64,000 bases of DNA from an uncultured Elusimicrobiaceae bacterium (lineage in GTDB: Bacteria > Elusimicrobiota > Elusimicrobia > Elusimicrobiales > UBA9959), in the NCBI GenBank assembly GCA_964417965.1, contig CAYQJX010000002.1:80486-144485 (forward strand). The letters are read 5' to 3'. Shown here piece after piece: positions 26,041 through 61,892 of the stretch (position 1 is its first letter; every line of letters starts with the position of its first letter). Under the pieces are notes generated by a model. That model was not told the origin of the DNA, searched no databases, and saw only the letters and a program-made list of their open reading frames with translations. The position numbers and the translations under genes were made by a program.

Positions 26041-26069
26041 TTGAAATTATTAATATTTTCTGCTAGACT
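26041..26069 (+). promoter_or_regulatory. Putative sigma70-type promoter at the head of the rSAM locus
   Basis: ttgaaa (26041-26046), 17 nt, tagact (26064-26069), within an AT-rich 120-nt intergenic region. Confidence 0.35.
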
Positions 26070-26134
26070 ATAACAGCGCATTTGGGTGCGGCGCTATTTT
26101 GCGCCTTTGGGACGGTCCCAGCGGGGGAGGTTCT

Positions 26135-26920
26135 ATGGAAACCACGGAAATATCCTTAAAACTCAACTTCAACCGCAGGCAGATCTCGGTTCTGCTTGCT
26201 TTTTTCCTGCTGGCCTGGCATCCGGGCTTTATCGGCTCCGAGACTTTAACCCTTACCACCTATTACCCGGCCCCGTACGGCGGCTATGTCAGCCTGCTGA
26301 CCACCAACCAGACACTGCTGGCCAGGGACGGCGGCAACGTGGGCATCAATATCGCCGGGCCCGGCAGCAAGCTGCACGTACACGGGACCACGCAGATAAC
26401 GGACGGTACCGCCGACGCCGACACGGCGGCCTACGGCACCTTCGGCGTCACGCGCCCGGCTTCCGGCCAGACCCTCACCTACATAGCGATGACCCGCCAG
26501 GGCAACGTGGTGAAGGCCATGGGCATAGACTCCAGCAATAACTGGGTTTTCGGCCTGCCCCAGGCCGGCACCCAGCGCATCACCGCTCCCCAGATGACCA
26601 TCACCCAGGGCGGCAACGTGGGCATAAACAACTCCTGGCCCGCCGAACGCCTCAGCGTCTCCGGCAACATCTCGGTGACCGGCGATATCATCATGACCCC
26701 CGGCACCGGCTATATCCGCAATGTCTGTTCCAGGGTGCAGTACAGCATCGGCCCCCAGGCGTTCTGCCCGGCCGGGGCCCGCGTGATGGGCTTCATGGGC
26801 GACGGCGTGGCCCGCGTCTGGGGCTTCCTGCCCCTGAACCAGACTTCCACCGGGGTCGGCCGCTACATAGTGCTCGGCGAGGACTGGGGCGGCACCATGG
26901 TCTGCTGCCGTATAATCTGA
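26135..26920 (+). CDS. Exported/anchored protein with fibre-like GNVGIN repeats and a Cys-rich C-terminus
   Basis: RBS gggggagg precedes the ATG at 26135. Signal/anchor ISVLLAFFLLAW. Motif TLTLTTYYPAPYGGY. GGNVGINI...KLHVHG recurs as GGNVGINN...LSVSG. The C-terminus is CSRVQYSIGPQAFCPAG...MVCCRII. Confidence 0.7.
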   Translation: METTEISLKLNFNRRQISVLLAFFLLAWHPGFIGSETLTLTTYYPAPYGGYVSLLTTNQTLLARDGGNVGINIAGPGSKLHVHGTTQITDGTADADTAAYGTFGVTRPASGQTLTYIAMTRQGNVVKAMGIDSSNNWVFGLPQAGTQRITAPQMTITQGGNVGINNSWPAERLSVSGNISVTGDIIMTPGTGYIRNVCSRVQYSIGPQAFCPAGARVMGFMGDGVARVWGFLPLNQTSTGVGRYIVLGEDWGGTMVCCRII

Positions 26921-26954: not shown

Positions 26955-27416
26955 TTGGACAACAGGATCGCAACCGTTAAGGTAGACCTTAAAAAATACA
27001 GCCTCGACGCCGCGCGCTACGCGGCCTACGCCCTGAGCGGCGAGGCTTTCGTTTTTATCAGCCGCGCCGGCGCCGCAGCCGTGGCCGTGTCGCTCTCGCC
27101 TAAAGGCGGCGGGTCCGGAGCCGCCCTGAAGGGCAAGTTCCTGGCGGAACTCGAGGATGAAAAACTGCGGGAAAAAATTGCCGCCGAGAACCGGGAGCTC
27201 AGGGAGTTCCTGACGCTGAAGGCGCTCTCCTCCCCGACCCCGGCCCCGGTCCCGGATTCCGGGCTTACCCCGGACCAGGAAAAAGAGCTGGCCGACCTTA
27301 TTTCCCAGGTCGAGAAAGAAATTAAAGAGGACGTCCGCGGAGGAGCCGCGGACCCGCTGGGGCTGACGAGCACTTGGGAAGACAAGTATGGCGCAAAAAA
27401 AGCCCGTAAAAAATAA
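26955..27416 (+). CDS. hxsD: HxsD-like small protein (copy 1)
   Basis: 153 aa. Contains KKYSLDAARYAAYALSGEAFVFI and FLAELEDEKLREKI..., which resembles the LLNDYxLRE-type signature I recall for HxsD. Overlaps the start of the HxsB-like gene. Confidence 0.55.
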   Translation: MDNRIATVKVDLKKYSLDAARYAAYALSGEAFVFISRAGAAAVAVSLSPKGGGSGAALKGKFLAELEDEKLREKIAAENRELREFLTLKALSSPTPAPVPDSGLTPDQEKELADLISQVEKEIKEDVRGGAADPLGLTSTWEDKYGAKKARKK

Positions 27417-28842
27417 GAAAACCGCCAGGACGCCCCTGGCCCGCTGGGAGCGGGTGGCCGGCGGCCGCCTGCTGACCAACGATTCCGGCTGTCACGCCCT
27501 GCTGGGCGAGAAGGATTTCGCGCGCGCCGTGGCCGGCGGCATTACCAAGAAGGACCCGCTTTTCAAGCGTCTTTCCGCCGCTGGCTTCATCAGGGAAAGC
27601 ATGGATTTCGAGGGCCTGGCCGCCAAGTGGCGCACCCTTAACGCCCACCTGGACCAGGGGCCCGGCCTGCACATCCTGGTGCTGACCCTCAGGTGCAACC
27701 ACAAGTGCCTCTACTGCCAGTCCAGCGCCGCCGGCGAGGGCGCCAAAAAGACGGACATGGACCGCAGGACCGCGCTGGCCAGCGTGGATTTCGCTTTCAC
27801 CTCCCCCAACCCGCTGATAACCATAGAATTCCAGGGCGGGGAGCCGCTGCTGAACTGGGAAGTGCTGAAGGCCGCCGTCAAGCGCGCCCGCGAAAAGGCG
27901 GCGGCTACCGGCAAGGAACTCAAGCTGGCGCTGGTCTCCAATTTTACCCTGATGACCGAGGAGAAGGCCCGCTTCCTCCTCGAGAACGAGGTCTCCATCT
28001 GCACTTCGCTCGACGGCCCGGCGGACCTGCATAACAGGAACCGGATCTTCGCCGGCGGCAACTCGCACGCCGCTACGGTGCGGTGGATAAAGTATTTCCA
28101 GGAAAAGCACGCGCGCCAGTCGCAGCCGTACCGGGTCTTCAAGCCCGGCGCGCTGCTCACCGTGTCCCGCCAGTCCCTGCCCCGCTGGAAGGAGATCATC
28201 GGCGAGTACGCCAGGCTGGGGCTGGAAGATATCTTCGTGCGGCCGCTGGCCCCGATCGGCTACGCCCGCGGCCTCTGGGACAAGATCGGCTATACGCCCG
28301 AGGAGTTCCAGGAATTTTACGGCCGCTGCCTGGACCATATCCTGGCCCTTAACCGCCGCGGCACGGTCATGCGCGAAAAAACCGCCGCCATGATGCTGGA
28401 GAAGATCGTCAACGCCACCGAGCCCGGCTACCTGGACGCGCGCTGCCCCTGCGGCGCGGCCATCGGCCAGGTCGCCTATAACTATAACGGCGACCTCTTC
28501 ACCTGCGACGAGGGCCGCATGGTCGGCTGGGAAGGCGACGATATTTTCCGCGTCGGCAACGTCTTCCGGGACAACCTGCGCAAAATTCTTTCTTCCCCGG
28601 CCGCCCGCGCCTGCGTGGTGGCCTCCAATCTTGAGGCCCAGCCCGAATGCTCGCGCTGCGCCTATAAGCCCTACTGCGGCGTCTGCCCCGTGTATAACTA
28701 CGAGGCGCAGGGCTCGCTGTGGGGCAACATGCGCTCCAACGGCCGCTGCCGGCTGTTCAAGGGCGTCTTCGCCGCTATTTTTGAAAGGCTGGGCAACGCC
28801 CGTGACAAGAAAGTGCTGGAGAGCTGGGTGGCAAAAAAATGA
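27388..28842 (+). CDS. hxsB: Radical SAM/SPASM maturase, HxsB-like (paralog 1)
   Basis: CNHKCLYC and FQGGEPLL. Full SPASM Cys set: CPCG...GDLFTCDEG...CSRCAYKPYCGVCPVYNY...GRC. ~95-aa N-terminal extension. Confidence 0.8.
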   Translation: MAQKKPVKNKKTARTPLARWERVAGGRLLTNDSGCHALLGEKDFARAVAGGITKKDPLFKRLSAAGFIRESMDFEGLAAKWRTLNAHLDQGPGLHILVLTLRCNHKCLYCQSSAAGEGAKKTDMDRRTALASVDFAFTSPNPLITIEFQGGEPLLNWEVLKAAVKRAREKAAATGKELKLALVSNFTLMTEEKARFLLENEVSICTSLDGPADLHNRNRIFAGGNSHAATVRWIKYFQEKHARQSQPYRVFKPGALLTVSRQSLPRWKEIIGEYARLGLEDIFVRPLAPIGYARGLWDKIGYTPEEFQEFYGRCLDHILALNRRGTVMREKTAAMMLEKIVNATEPGYLDARCPCGAAIGQVAYNYNGDLFTCDEGRMVGWEGDDIFRVGNVFRDNLRKILSSPAARACVVASNLEAQPECSRCAYKPYCGVCPVYNYEAQGSLWGNMRSNGRCRLFKGVFAAIFERLGNARDKKVLESWVAKK

Positions 28843-29156
28843 AAAAGCAGACTGACGCGAAAGAAATAACTTTTGATTCCGCTGTCTATTCTAAAGAGGC
28901 CGTAGAGCTGGCGGCCTATGTCTTTGCCGGGCGCTGCGGCGTAAAAGTTTCGCCCGGCAAGAGCGCTTCGGTCGCGCGGCTGTCCGGGGGCGCGGAGCTT
29001 GACCGGCTGGCCGGGGAGTTCGCCAACGAGGCGCTCAACCAGCAGTGCCGCATAGACCTGGCAAAAAAGAATTCCAAGCTGGCCGGCATGATAGTGACCA
29101 AGGCGCTGTTGTCGGCCTGCGGCGAAACCAAGCCGCGCTTACGGGGGAGCAAATGA
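28839..29156 (+). CDS. hxsD: HxsD-like small protein (copy 2)
   Basis: 105 aa. Contains DSAVYSKEAVELAAYVFAGRCGVKV and EFANEALNQQCRIDLAKKNSKLAGMIVTKAL, the same pattern as copy 1. ATGA overlap with the hxsB-like stop. Confidence 0.5.
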   Translation: MKKQTDAKEITFDSAVYSKEAVELAAYVFAGRCGVKVSPGKSASVARLSGGAELDRLAGEFANEALNQQCRIDLAKKNSKLAGMIVTKALLSACGETKPRLRGSK

Positions 29157-30217
29157 AAAAATCAGTGGTAATCGCTATCGTCGGGCTGCTGGCCCTGGTG
29201 CTGTTCCTGCAGTATCTGCAGAGGCGCAATGTCGCCCCCGCGCTGCCCGCCGGCCAGGCTACGCCCGCGGCCGAGGCTCCGGCGGGCATCCCCCTGCCGG
29301 CCGAGGCTACCGTCTACGCGGCCCAGCCTTCGCAGGAAACGCGGCCCTCGGCCCCGATAAAGGCCCCGCCCTCTTCTATCTTCAGAGCTCCGGCCGAGAT
29401 GGCCGGCGCCGGCCCGCTGCCCACCATCAACGCGGACTTCGCCCGCGCCCCGATAGGCTACACCGGCAAAACCCTCAACGGCATCCTCTCCTCCCACGGC
29501 AAGGTCTGGGGCAACGCCACCTTCGGCCCGGATGTCTTCACCAAGGAAGAGAACGACGCCCTCTACAGCCTGCTGGCCCAGTTCTTCTCCTGCAACGCCG
29601 TCGCCTACGGCGACCTGAACATGTGCAACTTCCTGCCGGGGGCGCTGACCAAGAAGGATAAATATTTCTGGAGCCCGCACTACGCGTGCATGGACCCCGC
29701 CAGCCGCGTGCTCTTCTACGCTTACGCCGCCGGCCGGTTCAACGTCAACGGCGAGTCGGTCTGCCGCAAGTATCTAGCGGGGGACAGCGTGGAAGGCGCC
29801 AAGGTGCCGCCGGAATTCTGCCGCGAGGTGTCCAAGGGTTTTTCTTATATCTGCGACATGGCCCCGGCCCGCGACCGGAGCCGCTGCCGCGAGGCGTTCC
29901 CCGCCGACAGCCGCAACTGCAGGACCCAGGACTGCATGGACAACAACAGGCTTTACCTCTCGCTCCGGGACAACAACATTTCCGCCTGCCCGGAGAAGTA
30001 CATGACGGAGTGCGGCGTTTTCTCCACCAAGTCCGGTTCGGTCTGCTCGCTCATACTCGACAAGATCGCCGGCACTTTCGCCCAGACGGAGGCGACGCAC
30101 GAGCAGAATATGAGCCCCGAGAAAAAGAAGCGCCTCGAAGAGGCCCGCAAGAAAGAAGAACAGAAAATAATAGAAGACGTGAACAAAAACGCCAGGAAGG
30201 CCTTGGGTAAGGATTGA
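29153..30217 (+). CDS. Membrane-anchored Cys-rich protein (12 Cys), unknown family
   Basis: The start at 29153 gives MKKSVVIAIVGLLALVLFLQYL (TM anchor). A Pro/Ala-rich linker follows, then a domain with 12 Cys (FFSCNAV, NMCNF, YACMD, SVCRK, EFCRE, YICDM, SRCRE, RNCRT, QDCMD, SACPE, TECGV, SVCSL). The tail is charged and helical. Confidence 0.7.
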   Translation: MKKSVVIAIVGLLALVLFLQYLQRRNVAPALPAGQATPAAEAPAGIPLPAEATVYAAQPSQETRPSAPIKAPPSSIFRAPAEMAGAGPLPTINADFARAPIGYTGKTLNGILSSHGKVWGNATFGPDVFTKEENDALYSLLAQFFSCNAVAYGDLNMCNFLPGALTKKDKYFWSPHYACMDPASRVLFYAYAAGRFNVNGESVCRKYLAGDSVEGAKVPPEFCREVSKGFSYICDMAPARDRSRCREAFPADSRNCRTQDCMDNNRLYLSLRDNNISACPEKYMTECGVFSTKSGSVCSLILDKIAGTFAQTEATHEQNMSPEKKKRLEEARKKEEQKIIEDVNKNARKALGKD

Positions 30218-30228: not shown

Positions 30229-30561
30229 ATGAAAAAGAAAAAACCCGGAGTAAAAAAGAACATAAAGCTCTTCCTCAACAGCGAAGAGGGGAAGATGCTC
30301 GACGCCGACATAGTGAAGGCCGGCCTCGCGCTGGGCATACTCGGCGCGGCGATGGTGGACCAGGCGAGCGCGCAGACCATCCACCAGAACTACTTCTACC
30401 CGCCGGCCGACCCGACCTCGCACGTCAGCCACCAGAGCCACGGCAGCCACGGCTCGCACGGCAGCCACGGCTCGCACGCCTCGCACGGCAGCCACGGCTC
30501 GCACGGCAGCCACGGCTCGCACGGCAGCCACGGCTCGCACGCCCGCGGCGGCTGGTGCTAG
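30229..30561 (+). CDS. hxsA: His-Xaa-Ser repeat protein (putative rSAM-modified precursor)
   Basis: RBS aaggag (30217-30222) precedes the ATG at 30229. The sequence reads MKKKKPGVKKNIKLFLNSEEGKMLDADIVKAGLALGILGAAMVDQASAQ, then TIHQNYFYPPADPTS, then 13 HxS triplets, then HARGGWC and stop. Confidence 0.9.
   Translation: MKKKKPGVKKNIKLFLNSEEGKMLDADIVKAGLALGILGAAMVDQASAQTIHQNYFYPPADPTSHVSHQSHGSHGSHGSHGSHASHGSHGSHGSHGSHGSHGSHARGGWC
30421..30543 (+). repeat. In-frame 9/18-nt tandem codon repeat encoding (His-Xaa-Ser)13
   Basis: The cacggcagc/cacggctcg units alternate Ser codons AGC and TCG. The 42-nt block cacggcagccacggctcgcacggcagccacggctcgcacgcc occurs twice (30439-30480 and 30502-30543). Confidence 0.95.
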
Positions 30562-30634: not shown

Positions 30635-30654
30635 CCCGCCCCCCGGCGGGTTTT
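30635..30654 (+). terminator. Small terminator/attenuator-like hairpin between hxsA and the next rSAM gene
   Basis: cccgcc-cccc-ggcggg followed by tttt, ending 2 nt before the ATG at 30657. A second hairpin, cccgcg-N9-cgcggg, lies at 30580-30600. Confidence 0.35.
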
Positions 30655-30656: not shown

Positions 30657-31754
30657 ATGAACACCATCCCCCAGGAACTAGACATCTGCGTCTCCAACCA
30701 GTGCAATATGCGCTGCCGCTACTGCTATTCCGGCGGTCTCGACCGCTCGCGCGCGCAGCGGCTGGACCTGCGCCGGATGAAGCTGGCCGTGCTGCAGTAT
30801 CTGCGGGCCGCCGGCCCGCGGGCCGAGAAGATAAGCATCTCGGGCGGCGAACCGCTGCTGGACAAGAAGCTGCTGGCCGCGCTGCTGCCCTGGCTGCGGC
30901 GCACGGCCGGGCCGGCCATGGAAATAGAATGTTTTTCCAACGGCCTGCTGCTGGACCGCCCCACGGCGGAGCTGTTCCGCCGCAGCGGCGTGCACCTGAA
31001 GATAAGCCTGGACGGGGCGCCGGCCAGCCAGGACCTGAACCGCGTGGACGCCGGCGGCGCTCCGAGTTCCGCCCGGGTCGCGCGCAGCCTGAAGGCCCTG
31101 CCGCCCGGCCTGCGCCGGAGCCTCGGCCTCTCGGCCACCGTGACGCGCGCCACCGCGCCCCGGCTTGCCGAAAATATTAAATTCCTGGCTTCGCTCGGCG
31201 CCGGCGACCTGGGGCTGTCTTTCGCGGTGCAGGAGAGATGGACGCGCGCCGACCTGGCGGGCTTGAAGCGCGAGCTGCTCGCCGCCCGGGCCTGGCTTAA
31301 GGGCGCCGGCCGCGGGGCTTTCAAAGACAGCCCGAGGTTCGGCTACAAGCTCATGCGGGCGGGTAAGCCCTGGCTGGAGAGTTTCTGCGGCCAGGGCGAG
31401 ATCTCGATCGGGCCCGACGGCCATTTTTACCCCTGCTCCATGCTCTCCGCTTCCAGCGTGGCCCAGGAGCCGGCGCTGCGCGCCCGCTACGCGGCGGGCG
31501 ACTGGCGCACCGGCCCGGACCTCGCGAAGGTCAGGGCGTCCCGGGAAAAAATTTTCAGGGCGGTCATGGCCGGCGGGCGCCGCGAGTTCCTGGGCTGCCT
31601 GCTCTGCATCTATTACAGCAGCCTGCTGCACGGCGGAGACCTTAAAGCCATGCTGAAGAGCAGTACGGATATCGTCCGGCTGCTGCGCGCCACCGGGATG
31701 GGTTCAGGCAACCCGGACGTGCCGCGCCCCCGGCTGGCCGGGGCGGCCCGGTGA
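30657..31754 (+). CDS. Radical SAM enzyme, AslB-like with partial SPASM/twitch region (paralog 1 of 3)
   Basis: CNMRCRYC and ISGGEPLL. The C-terminal region has FCGQGEISIGPDGHFYPCSML and LGCLLC. Confidence 0.8.
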   Translation: MNTIPQELDICVSNQCNMRCRYCYSGGLDRSRAQRLDLRRMKLAVLQYLRAAGPRAEKISISGGEPLLDKKLLAALLPWLRRTAGPAMEIECFSNGLLLDRPTAELFRRSGVHLKISLDGAPASQDLNRVDAGGAPSSARVARSLKALPPGLRRSLGLSATVTRATAPRLAENIKFLASLGAGDLGLSFAVQERWTRADLAGLKRELLAARAWLKGAGRGAFKDSPRFGYKLMRAGKPWLESFCGQGEISIGPDGHFYPCSMLSASSVAQEPALRARYAAGDWRTGPDLAKVRASREKIFRAVMAGGRREFLGCLLCIYYSSLLHGGDLKAMLKSSTDIVRLLRATGMGSGNPDVPRPRLAGAAR

Positions 31755-55806: not shown

Positions 55807-57000
55807 ATGGCTAAAAAAGAGAACGGTAAATGTTACGAGCTCATCCTCAACTATAACTGCAACGCGCGCTGCCTGTTCTGCTCGCAGGGGGACTTCGACA
55901 AATCCCGCAACGCGCCGTTCGAGGCTATCGCCCGCAATATCTATTCGGCACGGCGGGACGGCTATACCCGCCTCGGCCTCACCGGCGGCGAGCCGCTGGT
56001 GCGCCCGGACATCCTGAAGGTCATCGCCCTGGGCAAGTCCGTCGGTTTCGATTTCATCCGGGTGCAGACCAACGGCATAAAACTGGCGGACCCGGCCTTC
56101 TGCCGCGCGCTGGTGAAGGCCGGCCTCACTTTCTGCAAGTTCTCGTTCACCACCGACAAGGCCGCCGAGCACGACCGGCTGGTAGGAGTGCCGGGGGCGC
56201 TGAAGAAGGCCTTGGCAGGTCTCGCCAACCTGCGCCGGCTCAAGATCCGCCTCGGCACCAATATCCTGGTGAACCGGCTCAACTACCGCCGCCTGCCGGA
56301 GATCATCCGCTTCTACATGGAGCGCGGCATCACCAACTTCGTCGTCATCTACCCGGTCTATATCGGCGCCATGGCCGACAACGCCGGGGAGTACGGCGTA
56401 AGCCTGCCGGACTGCCAGCCTTACTTCCTGGAGGCGGTGCGCATGATGGAGGCCGCGGGGCTGGGCGGGGAGATCCTCTTCCTGAACACGCCGCCCTGTT
56501 TTCTCAAAGGCCGCGAGAGCCTGGCCATCGGCCTGGACGTCTTTAACACCGTGGTCACCGACCCCGACGGGGTGCGCACCGACCTGGACGCCAACGCCGA
56601 CGCCTCCAAGGCCAAAGGCCGGCCATGCCGGAGCTGCGCGCTGGCGAAAAAATGCCGCGGGGCGGACAAGCATTACCTGAAGGTTTTCGGCTGGGAAGGT
56701 TTTGAGCCGGTGCGCAAGCCCGGCGCTAAAAAAGCCGCGGCGCCGGAGGGCAGGGTTTTCTTTTCCGACAACGAGCGCTGCCTGGTGGAGATCCTGCGGC
56801 AGAAAAAAGAGGTGTCTACCGGCGAAGCCCTGGCCCTGGCCAAAAAAATAGTGCTGTGCCGGGACTGCTCCGACGGCAACGCGGTGATGAGCTCGGCCGA
56901 GCGGCTGGCGCGCAAAGGCCTGGTAAAGAGCCGCTTCGCCGGGGGGAAGTATTACTGGTCCCTCACCCGGCCCTACGAGAAGATAAAGAAATGGCTTTAA
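55807..57000 (+). CDS. Small radical SAM enzyme, HxsC-like paralog 6 of 7, with C-terminal winged-helix-like extension
   Basis: CNARCLFC, GGEPLVRPD, HDRLVGVPGAL, CRSCALAKKCRGADKHYLKVFGWEGFEPVRK. A ~95-aa tail follows (ERCLVEILRQKKEVSTGEALALAKKI...LARKGLVKSRFAGGKYYWSL). Confidence 0.8.
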   Translation: MAKKENGKCYELILNYNCNARCLFCSQGDFDKSRNAPFEAIARNIYSARRDGYTRLGLTGGEPLVRPDILKVIALGKSVGFDFIRVQTNGIKLADPAFCRALVKAGLTFCKFSFTTDKAAEHDRLVGVPGALKKALAGLANLRRLKIRLGTNILVNRLNYRRLPEIIRFYMERGITNFVVIYPVYIGAMADNAGEYGVSLPDCQPYFLEAVRMMEAAGLGGEILFLNTPPCFLKGRESLAIGLDVFNTVVTDPDGVRTDLDANADASKAKGRPCRSCALAKKCRGADKHYLKVFGWEGFEPVRKPGAKKAAAPEGRVFFSDNERCLVEILRQKKEVSTGEALALAKKIVLCRDCSDGNAVMSSAERLARKGLVKSRFAGGKYYWSLTRPYEKIKKWL

Positions 57001-57001: not shown

Positions 57002-58288
57002 TCACCACCACTTGGTGAAATCGAATCGGTAGTAGTAGGCGATGACCAGCAGGTCCAGCGAGGCCGCGTAGACCGCGAGAGCCGGCAGGGCCGCCCGGCC
57101 GCGCGCCAGCACCAGCCTGCATCCCTCCCCAAAATAGACCGCTGCCGCCGGCAGGCAGAACATCAGGTAGGAAGCCTTCAGCATCCCGTGCGGGAGGGCT
57201 ATCTGGTAATACGTCCAGGCGGCTCCCGCCGCCATGATCAGCGTGAAAATATTCAGCGCGTCATAGCGCCTGTCCCGCAGACTTGAGGCGAGGCCCGCCA
57301 GGGTCACCGGGGCCAGCGGCAAGGCCAGCCAGAACAAGGCGTTGCGCAGCCCGGGCAGCTGAACGGCGGTGTGGATGCGGTCGAAAGAAAAGAAAGAAGC
57401 GTAGAGCCCGGTCAGCACCGAGCCGGACTCGTGCCAGTTGTTCACCGGGCCGGCGAGCAGGCTGAAGAAGTTGAAGGTGTAAAAGTCGTGCTCGTTAGCG
57501 CCGGACAACCAGGGCATTATTACCCCGTCCGGGGAGAGCAGCCGCGGCAGGTAGAGCCAGCCGGCCAGCGCCGCCGACAAGCCCCAAACTATGGCCAGGC
57601 AGCCGGCGAGCGCGGGCAGGGGAAAGCGTTTTTTGAAGAAACTGAGCAGGATAACGGCGTTGAGGAAGACGAAGCAGGCCGGGCCGGCGAACCGCGTGAG
57701 CAGCAGCAGGGCGCACAGCAGCGACAGCAGCGTCACCGCGCCCCAGCTCCTGCCGCCCGGCTCTGTTTTTACCGCGGCCAGCAGGAAAGCCCCGCACAGC
57801 GCGGCGTAAGTGACATCGGGCGAGGCGAAGTTGCTGAAATAGATGTGCGCCGGCAGGAAAAGGGCCAGGTTCAGCCCCAGCAGCGCGGGTGCCGGGTCCC
57901 GGCCGAAGTAATGCCGCAGCAGCAGGAACAGCAGGCCGAGCGAGAGGAAATTGCAGAGGAGCGACCAGAGCTGCGCCGCGCCGACGGGGTCGGGGGCCGC
58001 CGCCATCAGCGCTCCTACGACCAGATTGTGCAGCGGCGGCGTCCACTTGAGACCGGCCGCGGCGGTGCGCTGGAACTCGGCGTAGCTGAATTTCCCGGCC
58101 TCCCGCGCGCAGCGCGCTGCGGAACCGCAGGCGGAGAGCAGGCCGGCGTAGTGCGCGCGGGTCTCCGCCGCCAGCTCGAAGTAGGGATCGTACTGGAAGA
58201 CTACCGGCAGCCCCGCCGTCTGTACGCGCAGGAATACTCCGGCGGCGAACAGGGGGAGGAAGAGCAGCAGCAGTTTATTTTTTTTCAA
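57002..58288 (-). CDS. Multi-pass membrane protein, GT-C (ArnT/PMT-like) glycosyltransferase candidate
   Basis: More than 10 predicted TM segments and a composition typical of GT39/GT83-type enzymes. I chose the TTG start at 58288 (gives MKKNKLLLLFLPLFAAG), because the GTG at 58405 would overlap the divergent gene at 58391. Confidence 0.55.
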   Translation of the reverse strand: MKKNKLLLLFLPLFAAGVFLRVQTAGLPVVFQYDPYFELAAETRAHYAGLLSACGSAARCAREAGKFSYAEFQRTAAAGLKWTPPLHNLVVGALMAAAPDPVGAAQLWSLLCNFLSLGLLFLLLRHYFGRDPAPALLGLNLALFLPAHIYFSNFASPDVTYAALCGAFLLAAVKTEPGGRSWGAVTLLSLLCALLLLTRFAGPACFVFLNAVILLSFFKKRFPLPALAGCLAIVWGLSAALAGWLYLPRLLSPDGVIMPWLSGANEHDFYTFNFFSLLAGPVNNWHESGSVLTGLYASFFSFDRIHTAVQLPGLRNALFWLALPLAPVTLAGLASSLRDRRYDALNIFTLIMAAGAAWTYYQIALPHGMLKASYLMFCLPAAAVYFGEGCRLVLARGRAALPALAVYAASLDLLVIAYYYRFDFTKWW

Positions 58289-58390
58289 AGGGTTCGCCGG
58301 CTTCGGGGGCCTTATGCGCGGCCCCGCGTGAAATGTTATTATAGCGGTAGTGGAACATTTGTTGCAAACCGCGACGGCGAAACCAGTCGA

Positions 58391-59236
58391 ATGTCCCTGA
58401 TACACCTATTTAGAAAGTGCAACCAGCGTTGCGTGTTCTGCTCCTGGCCGGAGGAGGGGGGGCGCGGGCCGGAAGCCGGCCTGCGCGCTTGGTTGAAGGA
58501 GATCTCCGCCATGCCCGCCGGGCTGGTACAGCTCTCCGGCGGCGAGCCGCTGCTGGCCGGCGCCTATAACCTGTGCCTGCTGCTCGGGGCCGCCAGGCGG
58601 CTCGGCCGCCCGGTAGAACTGCAGACCAACGCCCTGGCCGCGGCCGCCATGCCGCAGGCCGACCTGCTCAAGCTGGCCGGCGCCCTCAACGCCGCCGGCG
58701 GCTACTTCAACGTAAATTTCCCGGCCGCCTCCCAGGCGCTGGACTATAAGATAACGCGCGCCCGGGGCGGCTTCAAGAAGCGGCTGGCCGGGGTGCGGCG
58801 GCTGATGAAAGCCGGGGCGAAAGTGCGCCTCACCCACGTTATCAGTTCGCTCAATTACAAGGCCCTGCCCGCCTTCGCCGCCCTCGCGGCGGGGAGCCTG
58901 AAGGGCGCGGCCTGGATACAGTTCAGCTATATAAAAGGCGCGGGCCGGGCCGAAGACGGAACGTTCATCCCGGAATATTCTAAAGTGCAGCCCTATTTGG
59001 AAAAAGCCCTGGCGGCCTGCGCCAGGGCCGGCCTCCATTGCGAAGTGGACCATGTCCCGCCCTGCCGCCTCGGGGAATTCTGGCGGCTTAACGTGGACAT
59101 AGAGAAAATGAAGAAAGGCCTGAAGGGGCCGCACCTGCTGGAGAAAAAGCGCGTTGGAGCCTGCAGGGGCTGCCGCTACGCCGGAGTCTGCCCTGGTCCG
59201 AGGAAAGATTATATAGCCGTGCATAAAACTTTATGA
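58391..59236 (+). CDS. Small radical SAM enzyme, HxsC-like paralog 7 of 7 (most divergent)
   Basis: MSLIHLFRKCNQRCVFC, SGGEPLL, CRGCRYAGVCPGPRKDY. Only the C-terminal 281 aa of the 621-aa track ORF are credible. Confidence 0.75.
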   Translation: MSLIHLFRKCNQRCVFCSWPEEGGRGPEAGLRAWLKEISAMPAGLVQLSGGEPLLAGAYNLCLLLGAARRLGRPVELQTNALAAAAMPQADLLKLAGALNAAGGYFNVNFPAASQALDYKITRARGGFKKRLAGVRRLMKAGAKVRLTHVISSLNYKALPAFAALAAGSLKGAAWIQFSYIKGAGRAEDGTFIPEYSKVQPYLEKALAACARAGLHCEVDHVPPCRLGEFWRLNVDIEKMKKGLKGPHLLEKKRVGACRGCRYAGVCPGPRKDYIAVHKTL

Positions 59237-60483
59237 ACGATAAAATAAAGAGCCTTAATAAAGAATTCCCGGCCCTGAACGAGGATTTCTCGGGCCGGCG
59301 GCTGGTGTACCTCGACAGCGCCTGCACCGTGCTGAAGATGGGCTGCGCGGCCGAGGCCCAGCGCTCCCACATGCTGCTGCTGGGCGGCTGCGGCGGCAAA
59401 CGCTCGACGCACTCCCTGGCCACGGCCATGGAGGAAGAGTTTCACTCGGCGCGCGCGCGCGTGGCGCGGTTCCTGGGCGCGGAGTCGCCCGAGGAAGTGG
59501 TTTTCACCGCCGGCGTTACCGACGCCGCCAACCTGCTGGCCAACTCTTTTCCCTTTACGTCTAAACGCAACGAAGTGGTGCTGTCCCCGCTGGAGCACAA
59601 CGCGGTATTCCTGCCTTTCGAGCGTCTGGCCGCCGCCGGGCGGATAAGGATAAAGGTAGCCCCGCTCAAAGGTTTCCGGGTGGATATGGACGGCCTCGCG
59701 AAGTTGATCGGCCCACGCACCGCGCTGGTCTGTCTGAACCACGCCTCCAACATTTTTGGCGGGGTTTCCGACGTGGCCGCCGCGGCGGAGCTGGCCCACG
59801 CCGCTGGCGCCTTCCTTTTTTCGGACGACGCGCAGTACGCGCCCACCCACGGCGGCAGCGGCCTGGCCGAGGGGGCGGACGCCTGCGCCTTCTCCGGGCA
59901 TAAGCTGGGCGCGCCGTTCTTTACCGGCGCGCTGGGCTTGCGCCGCGGCCTGCTGGAGGAGTTGCGCCCCTGGCTGGTGGGCGGCGGCACCGTGGAGAGC
60001 GTCGTCTCCGCCGGCGGGCGCTACTCGGTGAAATACCTGGGCGGCTACCAGGGCCTGGAGGCCGGCGTGCAGAATTATTCCGGCGCCGCGGGCCTGGCCG
60101 CCGCTATAGAGCGGCTGGAGCAGGCCGGCTTCGGCAATATCCGGGCCCATGTGTCCGGCCTGGTGGCCGCCGCGCTGGACGAACTGGAAGACATAAAGGG
60201 CGTCCGCGTGCTGGGCGAGAGGGCGGACCTGCTGAACGGTTCGCTTATCACGCTGGCGCCGCTGAAGAAAGGTTTTTCAGTGCCGGATTTCAACCTGTTC
60301 CTTAACCGGGCCGTGAAGGGCCGCATGATAGCCGTGCGCACCGGCCGCCATTGCGCCGACCTCGCCTGCCTGAACTCCGGCTTCAGCGAGACCATACGCA
60401 TCTCCTTTTTCACCTATAACACCCCGGCGGACGCGGCGCTTTTCGCCCGGGCGCTCAGGCGCTACCTGGCCCTGCTCAAATGA
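59233..60483 (+). CDS. Class V aminotransferase / cysteine desulfurase (SufS/CsdA-like)
   Basis: PLP-lysine context FSGHKLGAP. Active-site loop VRTGRHCADL. 416 aa. Confidence 0.8.
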   Translation: MNDKIKSLNKEFPALNEDFSGRRLVYLDSACTVLKMGCAAEAQRSHMLLLGGCGGKRSTHSLATAMEEEFHSARARVARFLGAESPEEVVFTAGVTDAANLLANSFPFTSKRNEVVLSPLEHNAVFLPFERLAAAGRIRIKVAPLKGFRVDMDGLAKLIGPRTALVCLNHASNIFGGVSDVAAAAELAHAAGAFLFSDDAQYAPTHGGSGLAEGADACAFSGHKLGAPFFTGALGLRRGLLEELRPWLVGGGTVESVVSAGGRYSVKYLGGYQGLEAGVQNYSGAAGLAAAIERLEQAGFGNIRAHVSGLVAAALDELEDIKGVRVLGERADLLNGSLITLAPLKKGFSVPDFNLFLNRAVKGRMIAVRTGRHCADLACLNSGFSETIRISFFTYNTPADAALFARALRRYLALLK

Positions 60484-61892
60484 GGCGTCCCTCGCAGGGC
60501 TATGCCCTGGCCGCCGCCGAAAAGGCGGTGAACGGCCTGCTGGATAAAGGCCGGGCCGACCTGGCCTGCCGCCTGGCTTTAGAATCCGCCTGCAAACTTC
60601 CGTCCAGCCCCGTGCTGGGCAAACTCCTCGAGAAAGCCCTGAGCTGCTGCCCGGACGCGGCGCAGGCGAAAAAGATCTACGCCTCGCTGCTGGCCCTGCC
60701 CGGCGCTTACCCCGGCCATTATTACTGGCTGGCCATGTTCTGCAAGCGCGCCGGCGACTACGCCGGGATGAAAAAAGCTTTCGAGGGCTTCCTGCGCGCG
60801 CGCGGGAAGTCCGAGCCGCTCTACGCCTATATAGCCTGCTGCACCCTGGACCGGTACGAGGAAGCTTTCCGGGCGGCCGAGGAAGTGCTGGACGCGCCCG
60901 ACTCCGGCACGGTGCTGTCGCGGCTGTGGAACCCCTGGGGGGACAGGTCCTCGGCCATGCCGACGGGTTTCTTCCCCGCGCGCCTTAAAAAACTTGCCGC
61001 CGCCAAACTCAGCCCGGAGCTGGAACCTTACCGCGCCTTCCTGCGCGGCGCGCTGCTGTATTATACCGGCGACTATGCCGGCGCGCTGCGCTCCTTCGAC
61101 GGGCTGCCCGCTCTCCCTGCGGAGCGCTACGGCTGGATGCGTTTCCCCGCCGGTCTGGCCGCGCTGTACAGGCTGGAGTTCAGCCGCGCCTTCAAAGAAT
61201 TCTCCGCCAGCGAGAAAGCGGCGGTCTCCAGGGTTACCTCCATGGGCCGCCTGGCCGAAGTTTGTTTCTGCACCGGCAGCTATGCCGCCGGACTAAAGAA
61301 GCTGCGCGGGGCGCAGGAGCTTGCCCCGCTGTGGGCCCGGGCCGGCCTCCTGGCCTGGGAAGGCCAGCTGAGGCTCTTCGCCGGCAGGTATAAGGAAGCC
61401 CTCGTGCCCCTGAGCGCCGGAGCCCTGGGCGGGGACGACGCGGCCTACTGCTGGCGCGGCGCCGCGCTGCTGCGGCTGGGCCGCCTGGCGGAGGCGCTGG
61501 TCGACCTGGACAAGGCCGTGGAGCTTTTTCCCACCGACAGGGAGGCGCGGGTCTGGCGGGCCGAGGCCCGCTCCCTGGCCGGTAACCCGGCGGGGGCGCT
61601 GGCGGACCTGGAGTCGGTGCTCGCCCACGGGCCCAATAACTGGGCCTACATTGACCGCGCGCTGCTGCGGAGCGACGCCGGAGACGAGCAGGGTATGCGC
61701 GCGGACTTCCGGCTGGTGGCCCCTGAAATACGCCGGGCCCTGGCCCGCGCCGCCGGGGGAAGAGACGTCCGGGCGAGGCTTGAAAAAGCGCATGAACTGG
61801 CACTGGGCGACCGCCGGGACGAGAAATATTTCAACCACGCGTGGCTACACCGCGCCGCGGGGCGTTTTACAAACCGCCGCGCCATTGATTAG
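60480..61892 (+). CDS. TPR-repeat protein (paralog of 39982..41217)
   Basis: Shares blocks with the other TPR gene: YGWMRFPAGL, AWEGQLRLFAGRYKEALVPL, YCWRGAALLRLGR, ARVWRAEARS, GDRRDEKYFNHAWL. Confidence 0.7.
   Translation: MRRPSQGYALAAAEKAVNGLLDKGRADLACRLALESACKLPSSPVLGKLLEKALSCCPDAAQAKKIYASLLALPGAYPGHYYWLAMFCKRAGDYAGMKKAFEGFLRARGKSEPLYAYIACCTLDRYEEAFRAAEEVLDAPDSGTVLSRLWNPWGDRSSAMPTGFFPARLKKLAAAKLSPELEPYRAFLRGALLYYTGDYAGALRSFDGLPALPAERYGWMRFPAGLAALYRLEFSRAFKEFSASEKAAVSRVTSMGRLAEVCFCTGSYAAGLKKLRGAQELAPLWARAGLLAWEGQLRLFAGRYKEALVPLSAGALGGDDAAYCWRGAALLRLGRLAEALVDLDKAVELFPTDREARVWRAEARSLAGNPAGALADLESVLAHGPNNWAYIDRALLRSDAGDEQGMRADFRLVAPEIRRALARAAGGRDVRARLEKAHELALGDRRDEKYFNHAWLHRAAGRFTNRRAID

What the first reader, a model, noticed from the sequence alone, without database searches (positions are those of the whole stretch)
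26041..61892. Giant radical-SAM super-locus (17 rSAM genes in ~33 kb) built around a single His-Xaa-Ser repeat precursor
Between the barstar gene and the M20 hydrolase gene lie 31 tightly packed CDSs, 27 of them on the plus strand. Many have 4-nt ATGA-type start/stop overlaps (28839/28842, 31751/31754, 35205/35208, 36146/36149, 43736/43739, 47368/47371, 49527/49530, 50420/50423, 52733/52736, 53881/53884, 54804/54807, 59233/59236, 60480/60483). I count 17 CDSs with an N-terminal CxxxCxxC radical-SAM motif:
- 3 HxsB-like SPASM enzymes
- 7 small HxsC-like enzymes
- 3 AslB-like enzymes
- 2 B12-binding-domain enzymes
- 2 HemN-like enzymes

The only obvious peptide substrate is one 110-aa His-Xaa-Ser repeat protein. 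As I recall it, the described Hxs system is a 4-gene cassette (hxsA-D) defined bioinformatically, with no known product. I do not know of any description of an expansion like this one. Here, several paralogous maturase modules sit alongside an A24 peptidase, glycosylation genes, a flavoprotein, a SufS-like desulfurase and paralogous TPR proteins.
Basis: partly seen in the sequence, partly recalled or inferred. Interest (0 to 1): 0.95.

Follow-up and report, generated by a model that had tools for sequence, protein, structure and literature searches.

The report
Expanded His-Xaa-Ser radical-SAM locus, Elusimicrobia
A groundwater Elusimicrobia genome packs 17 radical-SAM enzymes, a membrane protease and sugar-transfer genes around one small exported His-Xaa-Ser repeat protein, a much enlarged and undescribed version of the four-gene HXS system that was recently shown to block phage DNA entry in E. 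coli.

Summary
Window 26135-61892 carries 31 tightly packed genes (27 on the plus strand, about 99% coding, 14 four-base start/stop overlaps). Seventeen of them have a CxxxCxxC motif and pass Pfam Radical_SAM.

The 110-aa repeat protein is a curated HxsA4, and two HxsB copies pass the curated HxsB cutoff. Two points of the interpretation need correcting:
- Hxs is no longer function-unknown. A 2026 paper shows the four-gene HXS system is an antiphage system whose rSAM-matured HxsA blocks phage DNA entry.
- The locus is not a one-off. Multi-rSAM HxsA4 loci occur in dozens of Elusimicrobia MAGs at a syntenic position. They share a conserved core (HxsD-HxsB-HxsD, HxsC, A24-like protease, three HxsC-like rSAMs, SufS-like) and swappable accessory modules. 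Counts reach 14 rSAM genes in 22 kb elsewhere.

I found no paper that recognises these loci as Hxs-type. Product chemistry and physiological role remain inferred.

In passing: in two relatives a nitrogenase-like NifHDK trio sits inside such an Hxs locus. This probably corresponds to the published "group VI nitrogenase paralog plus radical-SAM suite".

Verdict: real, a new variant of a known kind, interest about 0.7.

The parts
26135..26920 (+). g01, 261-aa membrane or secreted protein of unknown family. It is conserved at the 5' edge of most related loci, sometimes in 2-3 copies.
   Evidence: No Pfam or NCBIfam hit. Orthologs at 29-95% identity lie upstream of HxsD1 in most loci. Membership in the system is uncertain.
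26955..27416 (+). HxsD-like protein 1 (153 aa)
   Evidence: TIGR03976 HxsD scores 41.8 bits (cutoff 50). Precomputed Pfam PF27806 HxsD hit. Retains an 'LRE' motif.
27388..28842 (+). HxsB1, radical SAM/SPASM maturase (484 aa)
   Evidence: TIGR03978 scores 469.6 bits against cutoff 370. Radical_SAM and SPASM both pass Pfam gathering scores. CNHKCLYC motif.
28839..29156 (+). HxsD-like protein 2 (105 aa)
   Evidence: TIGR03976 scores 36.8 bits; HxsD_rel NF038315 scores 30.5 bits (cutoffs 50 and 41). PF27806 HxsD hit.
29153..30217 (+). X354: N-terminally membrane-anchored, Cys-rich, all-alpha protein, always found just upstream of hxsA4
   Evidence: 16 homologs, those with a source name from Elusimicrobiota. 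12 invariant Cys. AF2 model pLDDT 78.9, pTM 0.70, all helical with a disordered linker at residues 26-64. No PDB fold match. X354-HxsA4 adjacency is seen in many loci.
30229..30561 (+). HxsA4 precursor (110 aa). It has the leader KKNIKLFLNSEEGK, a hydrophobic segment, 13 His-Xaa-Ser repeats and a C-terminal RGGWC.
   Evidence: NF038313 HxsA4 scores 66.6 bits against cutoff 55. Leader and C-terminus are conserved in 94 of 120 homologs. 9-bp DNA repeat array at 30421-30541. GGAG ribosome-binding site upstream.
30635..30650 (+). GC-rich hairpin plus T-run in the 95-bp gap after hxsA4. Possible attenuator or terminator; evidence is weak.
   Evidence: Terminator-like match. The fold of the intergenic region gives z = -1.6 only.
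30657..31754 (+). g07, small PapB/SPASM-like rSAM (365 aa)
   Evidence: Radical_SAM 52.3 bits. Best NCBIfam hit is PapB at 92.9 bits, far below its cutoff of 340. No Pfam SPASM hit. The motif GPDGHFYPC is visible.
31751..33844 (+). g08, B12-binding-type rSAM with a long C-terminal extension (697 aa)
   Evidence: Radical_SAM 42.5 bits. B12-binding 30.6 bits, just below the gathering score of 32.1. Weak hits to B12 rSAM methyltransferases.
33868..35208 (+). g09, FAD/NAD(P) flavoprotein (446 aa), amine-oxidase or UDP-galactopyranose-mutase-like
   Evidence: PRK07208-type hits of about 104 bits and UDP-Galp mutase at 39 bits. DAO, Amino_oxidase and NAD_binding_8 precomputed.
35205..36149 (+). g10, sugar-1-phosphate nucleotidyltransferase (314 aa)
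   Evidence: TIGR03992, AglF and RmlA-type hits at 95-110 bits, all below cutoffs. NTP_transferase Pfam hit.
36146..37615 (+). g11, class-B (B12-binding) rSAM (489 aa)
   Evidence: B12-binding 50.6 bits and Radical_SAM 72.3 bits both pass gathering scores. HpnJ, ApyD and BchE-type hits of about 100 bits are below cutoffs.
37609..38340 (-). g12, GT2 glycosyltransferase resembling polyprenyl-phosphate sugar synthases (243 aa)
   Evidence: PpgS 63 bits, AglJ 61 bits, dolichyl-P hexose transferase 48 bits. Glycos_transf_2 Pfam hit.
38324..39985 (+). g13, polytopic membrane protein with a C-terminal beta-propeller-like region (553 aa)
   Evidence: Only weak propeller hits. Conserved in long-type relatives.
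39982..41217 (-). g14, TPR protein (411 aa), paralog of g31
   Evidence: TPR Pfam hits. 34% identity to g31 over 384 aa.
41240..42595 (-). g15, HemN-like rSAM (451 aa)
   Evidence: Radical_SAM 70.1 bits. STM4012 155 bits, HemZ 128 bits and HemN 121 bits, all below cutoffs.
42669..43739 (+). g16, HxsC-like rSAM (356 aa)
   Evidence: HxsC4 107.8 bits and HxsC 95.2 bits are the top families, both below cutoffs. C-terminal CxxCx5CxG tail.
43736..44797 (+). g17, HxsC-like rSAM (353 aa)
   Evidence: HxsC4 88.8 bits and HxsC 80.5 bits. 41% identity to g16. C-terminal tail motif.
44898..45980 (+). g18, small PapB/SPASM-like rSAM (360 aa)
   Evidence: Radical_SAM 39.1 bits. PapB 94.7 bits and HxsB 69.7 bits.
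45980..47371 (+). g19, HxsB-type paralog 2 (463 aa)
   Evidence: TIGR03978 scores 312.6 bits full-length, below the cutoff of 370. 38-41% identity to HxsB1 and HxsB3.
47368..49530 (+). g20, HemN-like (class-C-type) rSAM fused to a C-terminal HxsC-type tail (720 aa)
   Evidence: Radical_SAM 94.2 bits and HemN_C 26.6 bits pass gathering scores. STM4012 179 bits and ChuW/HutW 157 bits. The C-terminal ~80 aa match an HMM of the HxsC-like paralogs (24.1 bits, E = 1e-9) and carry the CxxCx5CxG tail.
49527..50423 (+). g21, HxsC-like rSAM (298 aa)
   Evidence: HxsC4 142.5 bits and HxsC 97.9 bits. Orthologs at 60-81% identity in many loci.
50420..51841 (+). g22, HxsB3 (473 aa)
   Evidence: TIGR03978 scores 432.6 bits against cutoff 370. 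SPASM 21.8 bits passes its gathering score.
51843..52736 (+). g23, the closest HxsC homolog (297 aa); member of the conserved core
   Evidence: TIGR03977 HxsC scores 161.6 bits (cutoff 267.9) over nearly the full length. Orthologs at 51-67% identity in the conserved core of relatives.
52733..53884 (+). g24, A24-like (GxGD) polytopic aspartyl protease with a C-terminal extension (383 aa); core member
   Evidence: Peptidase_A24 scores 22.8 bits, E = 1.3e-4, below the gathering score of 26.5. D23 in D-x-x-x-r-K-I-p-N and WPAGDAKFF are invariant in 31 orthologs.
53881..54807 (+). g25, HxsC-like rSAM (308 aa); core member
   Evidence: HxsC4 149.5 bits and HxsC 81 bits. Orthologs at 70-81% identity.
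54804..55805 (+). g26, small SPASM/twitch-like rSAM (333 aa)
   Evidence: Radical_SAM 44.1 bits. PapB 63 bits. 34% identity to g07.
55807..57000 (+). g27, HxsC-like rSAM with a C-terminal extension (397 aa); core member
   Evidence: HxsC4 88 bits and HxsC 84.3 bits. Orthologs at 60-81% identity.
57002..58405 (-). g28, polytopic membrane protein of unknown family (about 428-467 aa); accessory
   Evidence: No Pfam or NCBIfam hit. Only 6 homologs. The AF2 model is unusable, pLDDT 37.8.
58391..59236 (+). g29, divergent HxsC-like rSAM (281 aa); core member
   Evidence: HxsC 60.9 bits is the top family. Radical_SAM 43 bits. Orthologs at 54-73% identity next to SufS.
59233..60483 (+). g30, SufS-like class-V PLP enzyme, probable cysteine desulfurase (416 aa); core member
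   Evidence: Aminotran_5 229.9 bits. SufS subfamily 247 bits, below the cutoff of 475. The motifs FSGHK (PLP Lys) and RTGRHCA (Cys) can be read in the sequence.
60480..61892 (+). g31, TPR protein (470 aa)
   Evidence: TPR Pfam hits. Paralog of g14.

Best explanation
This is an enlarged, Elusimicrobia-type version of the His-Xaa-Ser (Hxs) radical-SAM protein-maturation system, built on an HxsA4-class precursor.

Proposed course, with shown and inferred steps marked:
1. HxsA4 is made with a conserved cytoplasmic leader (FLxSEEGK), a hydrophobic export or anchor segment, 13 HxS repeats and a C-terminal RGGWC (shown from sequence).
2. In the cytoplasm the leader is engaged by the HxsD/HxsB/HxsC-type machinery. 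The repeats, and possibly the C-terminal Trp/Cys, are then modified by several individually conserved radical-SAM paralogs. B12-type and HemN-type enzymes plausibly add carbon, as methylations or methylene-derived cross-links (inferred by analogy with E. coli HxsA, where HxsB/C/D give a +8 Da 'C minus 4H' change on SHRSS).
3. The SufS-like desulfurase supplies sulfur, most simply for the many Fe-S clusters (inferred).
4. The peptide is exported or inserted through its hydrophobic segment, and its leader is removed by the dedicated A24-like GxGD protease (inferred from conserved co-location and intact catalytic motifs).
5. In this long version a nucleotidyltransferase, a UGM-like flavoprotein, a GT2 polyprenyl-phosphate-sugar-synthase-like enzyme and membrane proteins may glycosylate the exported product or the envelope. 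The membrane-anchored Cys-rich X354 may act as its periplasmic partner (speculative).

The end product would be a heavily modified, envelope-located His/Ser-repeat protein. By analogy with E. coli HXS its most likely role is at the cell envelope, possibly as a barrier to phage DNA entry. The swapping of modules between relatives fits diversifying pressure. The physiological role is not shown.
For: Family assignments:
- HxsA4 (66.6 against 55), HxsB1 (469.6) and HxsB3 (432.6 against 370) pass curated cutoffs.
- HxsC or HxsC4 is the top family for seven small rSAMs.
- There are two HxsD-like proteins.
- All 17 enzymes pass Radical_SAM.

Operon-like packing: 14 four-base overlaps and about 99% coding density.

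Comparative genomics:
- HxsB relatives number 211 in species-representative genomes, and most of the top 80 come from Elusimicrobia MAGs.
- A recurring core (HxsD-HxsB-HxsD-[X354]-[C298]-HxsC-A24-C308-C397-C281-SufS) sits between the same flanks, RNase-barstar and M20.
- An HxsA4 ORF with the same leader occurs in 56 of 92 loci.
- Paralogs within the window are 24-49% identical, whereas orthologs across MAGs are mostly 50-80% identical. The copies are therefore old and individually maintained.

Other points:
- The A24-like protease has both catalytic Asp motifs invariant in 31 orthologs.
- The 720-aa HemN-like enzyme carries an HxsC-type C-terminal tail, which ties it to the same pathway.
- E. 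coli precedent: HxsB/C/D-dependent processing, modification and export of HxsA (PMC13128918).
Against: - No experiment or expression data exist for this locus.
- HxsC and HxsD homologs fall below the curated equivalog cutoffs.
- HxsA4 lacks the peptidoglycan-binding domain that is essential in E. coli HxsA.
- The gene order differs from the canonical D-B-C-A.
- In relatives the core module and the HxsA4 module can be separated by the M20 gene (L052), and short-type loci show no HxsA4 within 10 kb. A single shared substrate is therefore not proven.
- The conserved chromosomal position and apparently vertical inheritance are unusual for a defence system.
- B12 and HemN-type rSAMs also occur in cofactor pathways.
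- The cleavage site for the A24-like protease does not match classical prepilin motifs.
- The roles of X354, g13 and g28 are unknown. The fold search found nothing and the g28 model failed.
Confidence: 0.6

Rival explanations
1. Peptide-derived small molecule or cofactor factory. On this reading the HxS repeats are multiple core units that are modified and then excised, or the modified peptide serves as a metal-binding cofactor or metallophore. The product would be a redox or metal cofactor rather than an envelope protein.
For: - The repeats are His-rich, and repeat number varies from 4 to 37 between relatives, as in multi-core precursors.
- B12 and HemN-type rSAMs and a desulfurase are typical of cofactor chemistry.
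- In two related loci a NifHDK-like reductase trio sits inside the Hxs locus. Such enzymes are known from cofactor biosynthesis, namely F430 and chlorophyll.
- An M20 peptidase is a constant neighbour.
Against: - HxsA4 has a conserved export or anchor-like hydrophobic segment and a conserved C-terminus. This points to an exported polypeptide.
- The only characterised homolog, E. coli HxsA, functions as a matured protein.
- M20 is much more conserved (77-92% identity) than the locus genes, as expected of a housekeeping neighbour.
- The window has no NifH-like gene.
Confidence: 0.2
2. Mosaic of separate systems. On this reading a compact Hxs cassette happens to be interleaved with unrelated rSAM-dependent pathways (glycan, lipid or tetrapyrrole modification), so that most of the 17 enzymes do not touch HxsA4.
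For: - The middle ~15 kb (30657-45980) is absent from the otherwise syntenic relatives L002 and L081, and the long and short architectures differ by whole blocks.
- That block contains a coherent sugar-activation and transfer set (g09, g10, g12).
- The locus lies next to lipid A and outer-membrane biogenesis genes.
- A 95%-identical relative has transposases inserted after HxsC297, which shows local rearrangement.
Against: - The accessory blocks are themselves made largely of HxsB-type and HxsC-like paralogs (g16, g17, g19, g21, g22).
- The HemN-like g20 carries an HxsC-type tail.
- Genes of different classes are translationally coupled by ATGA overlaps.
- No accessory rSAM reaches the cutoff of any characterised cofactor or lipid family.
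- The same families recur around HxsA4 in distant loci with different gene orders (L066, L078, L080, L091).
Confidence: 0.15

Closest known systems
Canonical HXS antiphage system (HxsD-HxsB-HxsC-HxsA) of E. coli, Klebsiella and other Pseudomonadota (PMC13128918; TIGR03976-03979)
   Same: - An exported His-Xaa-Ser repeat protein encoded beside an HxsB-type rSAM/SPASM enzyme, HxsC-type small rSAMs and HxsD-type small proteins.
- The precursor has an N-terminal export signal, and maturation is presumed to be cytoplasmic.
   Different: - 17 rSAM genes instead of 2.
- An HxsA4-class precursor of 110 aa with 13 repeats, no peptidoglycan-binding domain, and a conserved FLxSEEGK leader and RGGWC end.
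- A dedicated A24-like protease, a SufS-like enzyme, the Cys-rich X354, TPR proteins and glycosylation genes.
- Gene order D-B-D-X-A, with the closest HxsC 21 kb away.
- The HxsC and HxsD homologs fall below curated cutoffs.
- Host phylum Elusimicrobia, whereas 99.7% of surveyed HXS systems are in Pseudomonadota.
- A syntenic chromosomal position rather than a patchy distribution.
NCBIfam HxsA4 / HxsC4 variant families (NF038313, NF038332)
   Same: The precursor passes the HxsA4 model. Several small rSAMs have HxsC4 as their best family.
   Different: The best HxsC4 score is 149.5 bits against a cutoff of 500, so none is a member. These models only name proteins. I found no published description of the locus type.
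rSAM-rich loci around group VI nitrogenase-like (NFL) paralogs in groundwater Elusimicrobia (Meheust et al. 2020, 10.1101/765248; reviewed in PMC13474568)
   Same: - Same phylum and habitat.
- Many adjacent rSAM genes (up to 13), including B12-binding and HemN_C fusions.
- In L061 and L067 a NifHDK-like trio lies inside a locus with HxsD, HxsB, HxsA4, HxsC-like and A24-like genes.
   Different: - The window has no NifH/D/K-like gene.
- Those papers interpret the loci as tetrapyrrole or unknown-cofactor synthesis and do not mention Hxs.
- I did not run the phylogeny that would place the L061 and L067 NifH in group VI.
Multi-enzyme rSAM RiPP clusters (e.g. SPASM sactipeptide/ranthipeptide maturases, B12-rSAM methyltransferase-rich proteusin/polytheonamide-type clusters)
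   Same: A leader-bearing ribosomal precursor modified by rSAM enzymes, including B12-dependent ones, with a dedicated leader protease. This comparison rests on general knowledge of RiPPs.
   Different: The number and diversity of rSAM paralogs per single short repetitive precursor is far higher here. The substrate motif (His-Xaa-Ser) and its chemistry are uncharacterised.

Membership tests
Hxs (His-Xaa-Ser) system | His-Xaa-Ser repeat precursor (HxsA family model) | tested here: met
   NF038313 HxsA4 scores 66.6 bits against cutoff 55, with 13 HxS repeats. It does not pass HxsA3 (28.5 against 65).
Hxs (His-Xaa-Ser) system | HxsB rSAM/SPASM maturase (TIGR03978, cutoff 370) | tested here: met
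   g03 scores 469.6 and g22 scores 432.6. The third copy, g19, scores 312.6 and is below the cutoff.
Hxs (His-Xaa-Ser) system | HxsC rSAM (TIGR03977, cutoff 267.9) | tested here: not met
   The best score is g23 at 161.6 bits; six others score 61-98 bits. HxsC or HxsC4 is nevertheless the top-scoring family for all seven.
Hxs (His-Xaa-Ser) system | HxsD small protein (TIGR03976, cutoff 50) | tested here: inconclusive
   Scores are 41.8 and 36.8 bits, both below the cutoff. Both proteins do carry a precomputed Pfam PF27806 HxsD hit.
Hxs (His-Xaa-Ser) system | [quoted passage not shown] | tested here: not met
   The order here is D-B-D-X354-A4, with the closest HxsC 21 kb downstream, in a locus of 31 genes.
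Hxs (His-Xaa-Ser) system | HxsA effector with a peptidoglycan-binding domain; antiphage activity | not testable with these tools
   HxsA4 is 110 aa with only a leader, a hydrophobic segment and repeats, so no such domain is apparent. The neighbouring X354 showed no PDB fold match. Phage defence cannot be tested in silico, and PADLOC v2 has no Hxs models.
HxsC4 (NF038332) | Score of at least 500 bits | tested here: not met
   The maximum is 149.5 bits, for g25.
Peptidase A24 (prepilin-type GxGD aspartyl protease) | Two catalytic Asp motifs in a polytopic membrane protein, plus the Pfam gathering score | tested here: inconclusive
   D23 (D..a.rKIpN) and WPAGDAKFF are invariant in 31 orthologs. 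PF01478 scores 22.8 bits, below the gathering score of 26.5. The PDB sequence search found nothing.
Anaerobic sulfatase maturase / SPASM ('AslB-like') for g07, g18, g26 | SPASM domain and anSME equivalog score | tested here: not met
   There is no Pfam SPASM hit. TIGR03942 scores 44, 34 and 23 bits against a cutoff of 349. These are generic small rSAMs whose best resemblance is to PapB-type peptide maturases.
Class B (B12-binding) radical SAM | N-terminal B12-binding domain plus a Radical_SAM core | tested here: met
   g11 scores 50.6 bits on B12-binding (gathering score 32.1). g08 is borderline at 30.6. No characterised equivalog is reached.
HemN / class C radical SAM | HemN-type core plus HemN_C; HemN equivalog cutoff of 325 | tested here: inconclusive
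   g20 passes Radical_SAM and HemN_C gathering scores but scores 146.6 on HemN. g15 scores 120.6 on HemN and has no HemN_C hit. Both are HemN-like but not HemN.
Group VI NFL-associated rSAM locus | Adjacent NifH/NifD/NifK-like genes | tested here: not met
   No NifH P-loop ORF occurs anywhere in the window. Such genes are present in the related loci L061 and L067.

The most novel reading that the evidence does not exclude
Groundwater Elusimicrobia may carry a modular 'Hxs4 platform'. In it, a single exported His-Xaa-Ser repeat protein is tailored by 5 to 17 or more individually conserved radical-SAM paralogs, together with a dedicated GxGD protease. In some lineages the unexplained group VI nitrogenase-like reductases would belong to the same platform.

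If so, the 'rSAM suite' published next to group VI NFL genes is an Hxs peptide-maturation system. Nitrogenase-like enzymes would then act on, or together with, a ribosomal peptide product rather than on a free tetrapyrrole.
Probability: 0.3. Interest if true: 0.85.

Novelty: new variant of a known kind. Interest (0 to 1): 0.7.

Why it matters
The chemistry of Hxs maturation is unsolved even in E. coli, where it appears as a +8 Da change on an SHRSS motif. A natural locus family offers a comparative map of which enzymes are core and which are tailoring. In this family one short His-Xaa-Ser repeat precursor co-occurs with 5-17 distinct, individually conserved radical-SAM enzymes, a dedicated leader-type protease and a desulfurase. 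It could also be a source of new radical-SAM reactions on His and Ser.

It extends a newly recognised antiphage effector type to a distant phylum, in a form that looks chromosomally fixed. This raises the question of whether the role there is defence or a housekeeping envelope function.

The link to group VI nitrogenase-like genes gives a concrete, testable alternative to the current tetrapyrrole-cofactor guess for those enzymes.

Tried and rejected
- **g28 as a GT-C glycosyltransferase that would complete a polyprenyl-phosphate-sugar pathway.** There was no family hit, only 6 homologs, and the AF2 model had pLDDT 37.8, so it was unusable. The idea remains untested.
- **PADLOC scan for a defence-system assignment.** It returned only generic weak viperin and rSAM hits, and the 2023 library has no Hxs models.
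- **PDB sequence search for the A24-like protein.** No hit.
- **Terminator or attenuator after hxsA4.** A consensus hairpin is present, but the fold z-score is only -1.6 in this GC-rich sequence. I treat it as weak evidence.
- **Rfam scan for riboswitches (SAM, cobalamin) in the locus.** None found.
- **Classical prepilin cleavage motif in HxsA4.** A conserved K-x-G precedes the hydrophobic segment, but there is no G|F...E5 pattern. The cleavage site is left open.
- **Assignment of any rSAM to a characterised cofactor pathway (MoaA, NirJ, AhbD, PqqE, HemN, BchE, HpnJ and others).** All scores are far below curated cutoffs.
- **Literature searches for a prior description of expanded Hxs loci.** None found.

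Full report
**Observation.** Six-frame ORF listing and translation give 31 genes between 26135 and 61892. Twenty-seven are on the plus strand. The four on the minus strand are a GT2 (37609-38340), a TPR protein (39982-41217), a HemN-like rSAM (41240-42595) and a polytopic membrane protein (57002-58405). About 99% of the interval is coding. Seventeen products carry an N-terminal CxxxCxxC, and all 17 pass the Pfam Radical_SAM gathering score.

**Family assignment.**
- The 110-aa protein at 30229-30561 passes the curated HxsA4 model (66.6 bits, cutoff 55).
- Two enzymes pass the HxsB equivalog (469.6 and 432.6 bits, cutoff 370). A third is a full-length sub-threshold relative (312.6).
- Seven small rSAMs have HxsC or HxsC4 as their best family, but all fall below the cutoffs. 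The best is g23 at 161.6 bits against 267.9.
- Two small proteins flanking HxsB1 are HxsD-like. They score 41.8 and 36.8 bits against 50, and both carry the Pfam HxsD domain in precomputed annotation.
- Two enzymes are B12-binding rSAMs, one clearly and one borderline.
- Two are HemN-like. One has HemN_C and a 280-aa extension.
- Three are small PapB-like rSAMs with no Pfam SPASM hit, so 'AslB-like' overstates the case.
- No rSAM reaches the cutoff of any characterised cofactor, lipid or RiPP family.
- The other genes are a flavoprotein (amine-oxidase or UGM-like), a sugar-1-P nucleotidyltransferase, a GT2 resembling polyprenyl-phosphate sugar synthases, a membrane/beta-propeller protein, two paralogous TPR proteins (34% identical), an A24-like membrane protein, a SufS-like PLP enzyme with the PLP-Lys and Cys motifs, and two membrane or secreted proteins without family (g01, g28).

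**What is known.** A 2026 study (PMC13128918) shows that the four-gene HXS system is an antiphage system that blocks phage DNA entry. [quoted passage not shown] The processed periplasmic HxsA carries a +8 Da modification on an SHRSS motif, which could not be assayed in the deletion or active-site mutants. HxsC binds HxsD. [quoted passage not shown] That survey found 99.7% of systems in Pseudomonadota and over 99.8% with four genes. The present architecture therefore lies outside what was described there.

**Source and relatives.** The window is a metagenome contig (ENA ERZ27284381). It is 95% identical at HxsB to Elusimicrobia bacterium GWB2_63_22, where HxsB is already named and the neighbours are annotated as hypothetical.

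A scan of species-representative genomes with HxsB1 found 211 relatives. Most of the best 80 are from Elusimicrobia MAGs, with a few from CPR and Schekmanbacteria bins. I annotated six-frame ORFs of all fetched loci against the window proteins.

- A recurring core emerges: HxsD-HxsB-HxsD-[X354]-[HxsC-like]-HxsC-A24-like-HxsC-like(C308)-HxsC-like(C397)-HxsC-like(C281)-SufS-like. It sits between the same flanking genes, RNase-barstar upstream and M20 downstream, in about 20 MAGs.
- The window looks like that core with about 23 kb (X354 through HxsB3) inserted between HxsD2 and HxsC.
- The same long form occurs in GWB2_63_22, L049, L007, L008 and L022.
- L002 and L081 have an intermediate form that lacks 30657-45980.
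- In L052 the HxsB-X354-HxsA4 module lies beyond M20.
- More distant loci (L066, L078, L080, L091) hold the same families in other orders.

rSAM ORFs per ~21-kb locus have a median of 6 and reach 11 in genomes and 14 in one metagenome contig. An HxsA4-type ORF occurs in 56 of 92 loci, with 5-37 repeats. Paralogs within the window are 24-49% identical, while orthologs between MAGs are mostly 50-80% identical. The copies are therefore ancient and individually maintained, not recent amplifications.

**Anatomy bearing on mechanism.**
- *HxsA4 features.* Homologs share a strongly conserved leader, K-K-x-I-K-x-F-L-x-S-E-E-G-K, at 90% or more for F-L and S-E-E-G-K. This is followed by K-x-G, about 14 hydrophobic residues and an Ala-rich stretch. 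Then come 4-29 HxS repeats (X is Gly, then Ser, then Ala in frequency) and an aromatic C-terminus (RGGWC, SHGQW or SHGSW).
- *A24-like protein.* It keeps both GxGD-protease Asp motifs invariant across 31 orthologs and belongs to the conserved core. This makes it the obvious candidate for the leader protease. The K-x-G|hydrophobic junction is a plausible site but not a canonical one.
- *HxsC-like tail.* All seven HxsC-like enzymes share a C-terminal CxxCx5CxG...FG...K tail. The 720-aa HemN-like enzyme ends in the same tail. This ties a class-C-type rSAM to the Hxs machinery.
- *X354.* It is membrane-anchored, has 12 invariant Cys and folds confidently as an all-alpha domain with no PDB match.
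- *Regulatory signals.* The hairpin after hxsA4 is only weak evidence for attenuation. No riboswitch lies in the locus.

**Interpretation.** The best-supported reading is a single, modular Hxs-type maturation pathway for an exported HxS-repeat protein, with a conserved core and lineage-specific tailoring blocks. I give this 0.6.

Shown:
- family membership of the precursor and HxsB;
- relatedness of the HxsC and HxsD homologs;
- conservation and synteny of the core;
- intact catalytic motifs.

Inferred:
- that the accessory rSAMs act on HxsA4;
- that A24 removes the leader;
- that SufS feeds Fe-S clusters;
- that the sugar genes glycosylate the product;
- that the role is envelope-associated, possibly antiphage.

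The syntenic, apparently vertically inherited position argues against a typical mobile defence island. The block-wise variability and the hypervariable repeat number would fit diversifying selection. The rivals are a peptide-derived cofactor or metallophore (0.2) and a mosaic of unrelated pathways (0.15).

**Side finding.** In L061 (Elusimicrobia bacterium RBG_16_66_12) and L067, a NifH/NifD/NifK-like trio lies on the same strand inside a bona fide Hxs locus. The trio scores 255-265 bits on Fer4_NifH and 52-121 bits on Oxidored_nitro. The locus has HxsD at 52.7 (cutoff 50), HxsB at 516-522 (cutoff 370) and HxsA4 at 84.3 (cutoff 55), along with HxsC-like rSAMs and the A24-like protein.

[quoted passage not shown] A 2026 review still lists these as unknown, presumed tetrapyrrole-cofactor systems (PMC13474568). 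Neither source mentions Hxs. I did not run the phylogeny needed to confirm group VI identity. The window itself has no such genes.

**Novelty and score.** The kind of system (Hxs) is known and now functionally characterised. HxsA4 is a curated family, and the sequences have been public since 2016. The expanded architecture, its conserved core with a dedicated protease and desulfurase, its phylum-wide modular variation and its link to NFL loci are not described in the literature I could search.

I rate it a new variant of a known kind, with interest 0.7. It is still high, because it offers an unusually rich and tractable entry into unknown radical-SAM chemistry on a simple repeat substrate.

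Noticed in passing
L067:9408-20838 and L061:6277-21228 (related loci, not the window): A NifH/NifD/NifK-like trio is embedded, on the same strand and contiguous, inside Hxs loci that carry HxsD, HxsB and HxsA4 above curated cutoffs plus HxsC-like and A24-like genes. It probably corresponds to the published 'group VI nitrogenase paralog plus radical-SAM suite' of Elusimicrobia, which has been interpreted as tetrapyrrole-cofactor synthesis without any mention of Hxs.
   Followed up: partly
window 5095-5165 (-): A strong match to the 2'-dG-II purine riboswitch aptamer (RF03165, 84.9 bits against a gathering score of 60). It lies upstream of a 193-aa ORF (4444-5025, minus strand) that has no Pfam hit, in a stretch of lower GC (52-53% at 2-6 kb against about 63% elsewhere).
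   Followed up: partly
L086:15363-22160 (JGI contig Ga0209317_1000390) and L087: In a relative 90-97% identical across 38-52.7 kb of the window, the sequence after the HxsC gene is not the A24-like gene. Instead it is a block with rve-type transposase/integrase ORFs and unrelated genes. This is either an IS-mediated disruption or rearrangement of the locus, or an assembly join.
   Followed up: partly
window 30421-30541; loci: The number of HxS repeats in HxsA4 varies from 4 to 37 among relatives, and differs even between fairly close ones (9, 13, 14, 18, 27). It is encoded by a 9-bp tandem DNA repeat, which suggests slippage-driven length variation.
   Followed up: partly
L004/L005:9208-10330: An orphan HxsA4-like gene (P0005, 12 repeats, RGGWC end). 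It is overlapped by an upstream 272-aa unknown ORF, has no adjacent HxsB, HxsC or HxsD genes, and lies on contigs of over 200 kb. The maturases, if any, are encoded elsewhere.
   Followed up: no
window 25037-26015: A secreted barnase-like ribonuclease and barstar pair lies immediately upstream of the locus. It is conserved in that position in most related MAGs and forms the left synteny anchor. Whether it is functionally linked to the locus is unknown.
   Followed up: no
window 26135-26920; L009, L016: g01 belongs to an unannotated protein family with an N-terminal hydrophobic segment, GNVGIN-type repeats and a Cys-rich end. It sits at the 5' edge of most loci, in 2-3 tandem copies in some MAGs, and next to the A24-like gene in L061. 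It could be a second substrate of the protease.
   Followed up: no
L054, L056, L068, L085: HxsB homologs at 44-47% identity, mostly with HxsA4-like ORFs, occur in bins labelled Azambacteria, Schekmanbacteria, Saccharibacteria and Parcubacteria. This reflects either horizontal transfer or mis-binning.
   Followed up: no
window 1-24900: The upstream half of the window is outer-membrane and lipid A biogenesis plus housekeeping genes. These include LpxB, LpxI, LpxA-like, LpxC, LpxD, FabZ-like, OmpH, BamA, an MsbA-like ABC exporter, heptosyltransferase, a DUF3413-sulfatase family protein, RelA/SpoT, GlgB, a ZIP transporter and PhoH-PIN. The Hxs locus therefore sits next to envelope-biogenesis genes.
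   Followed up: partly
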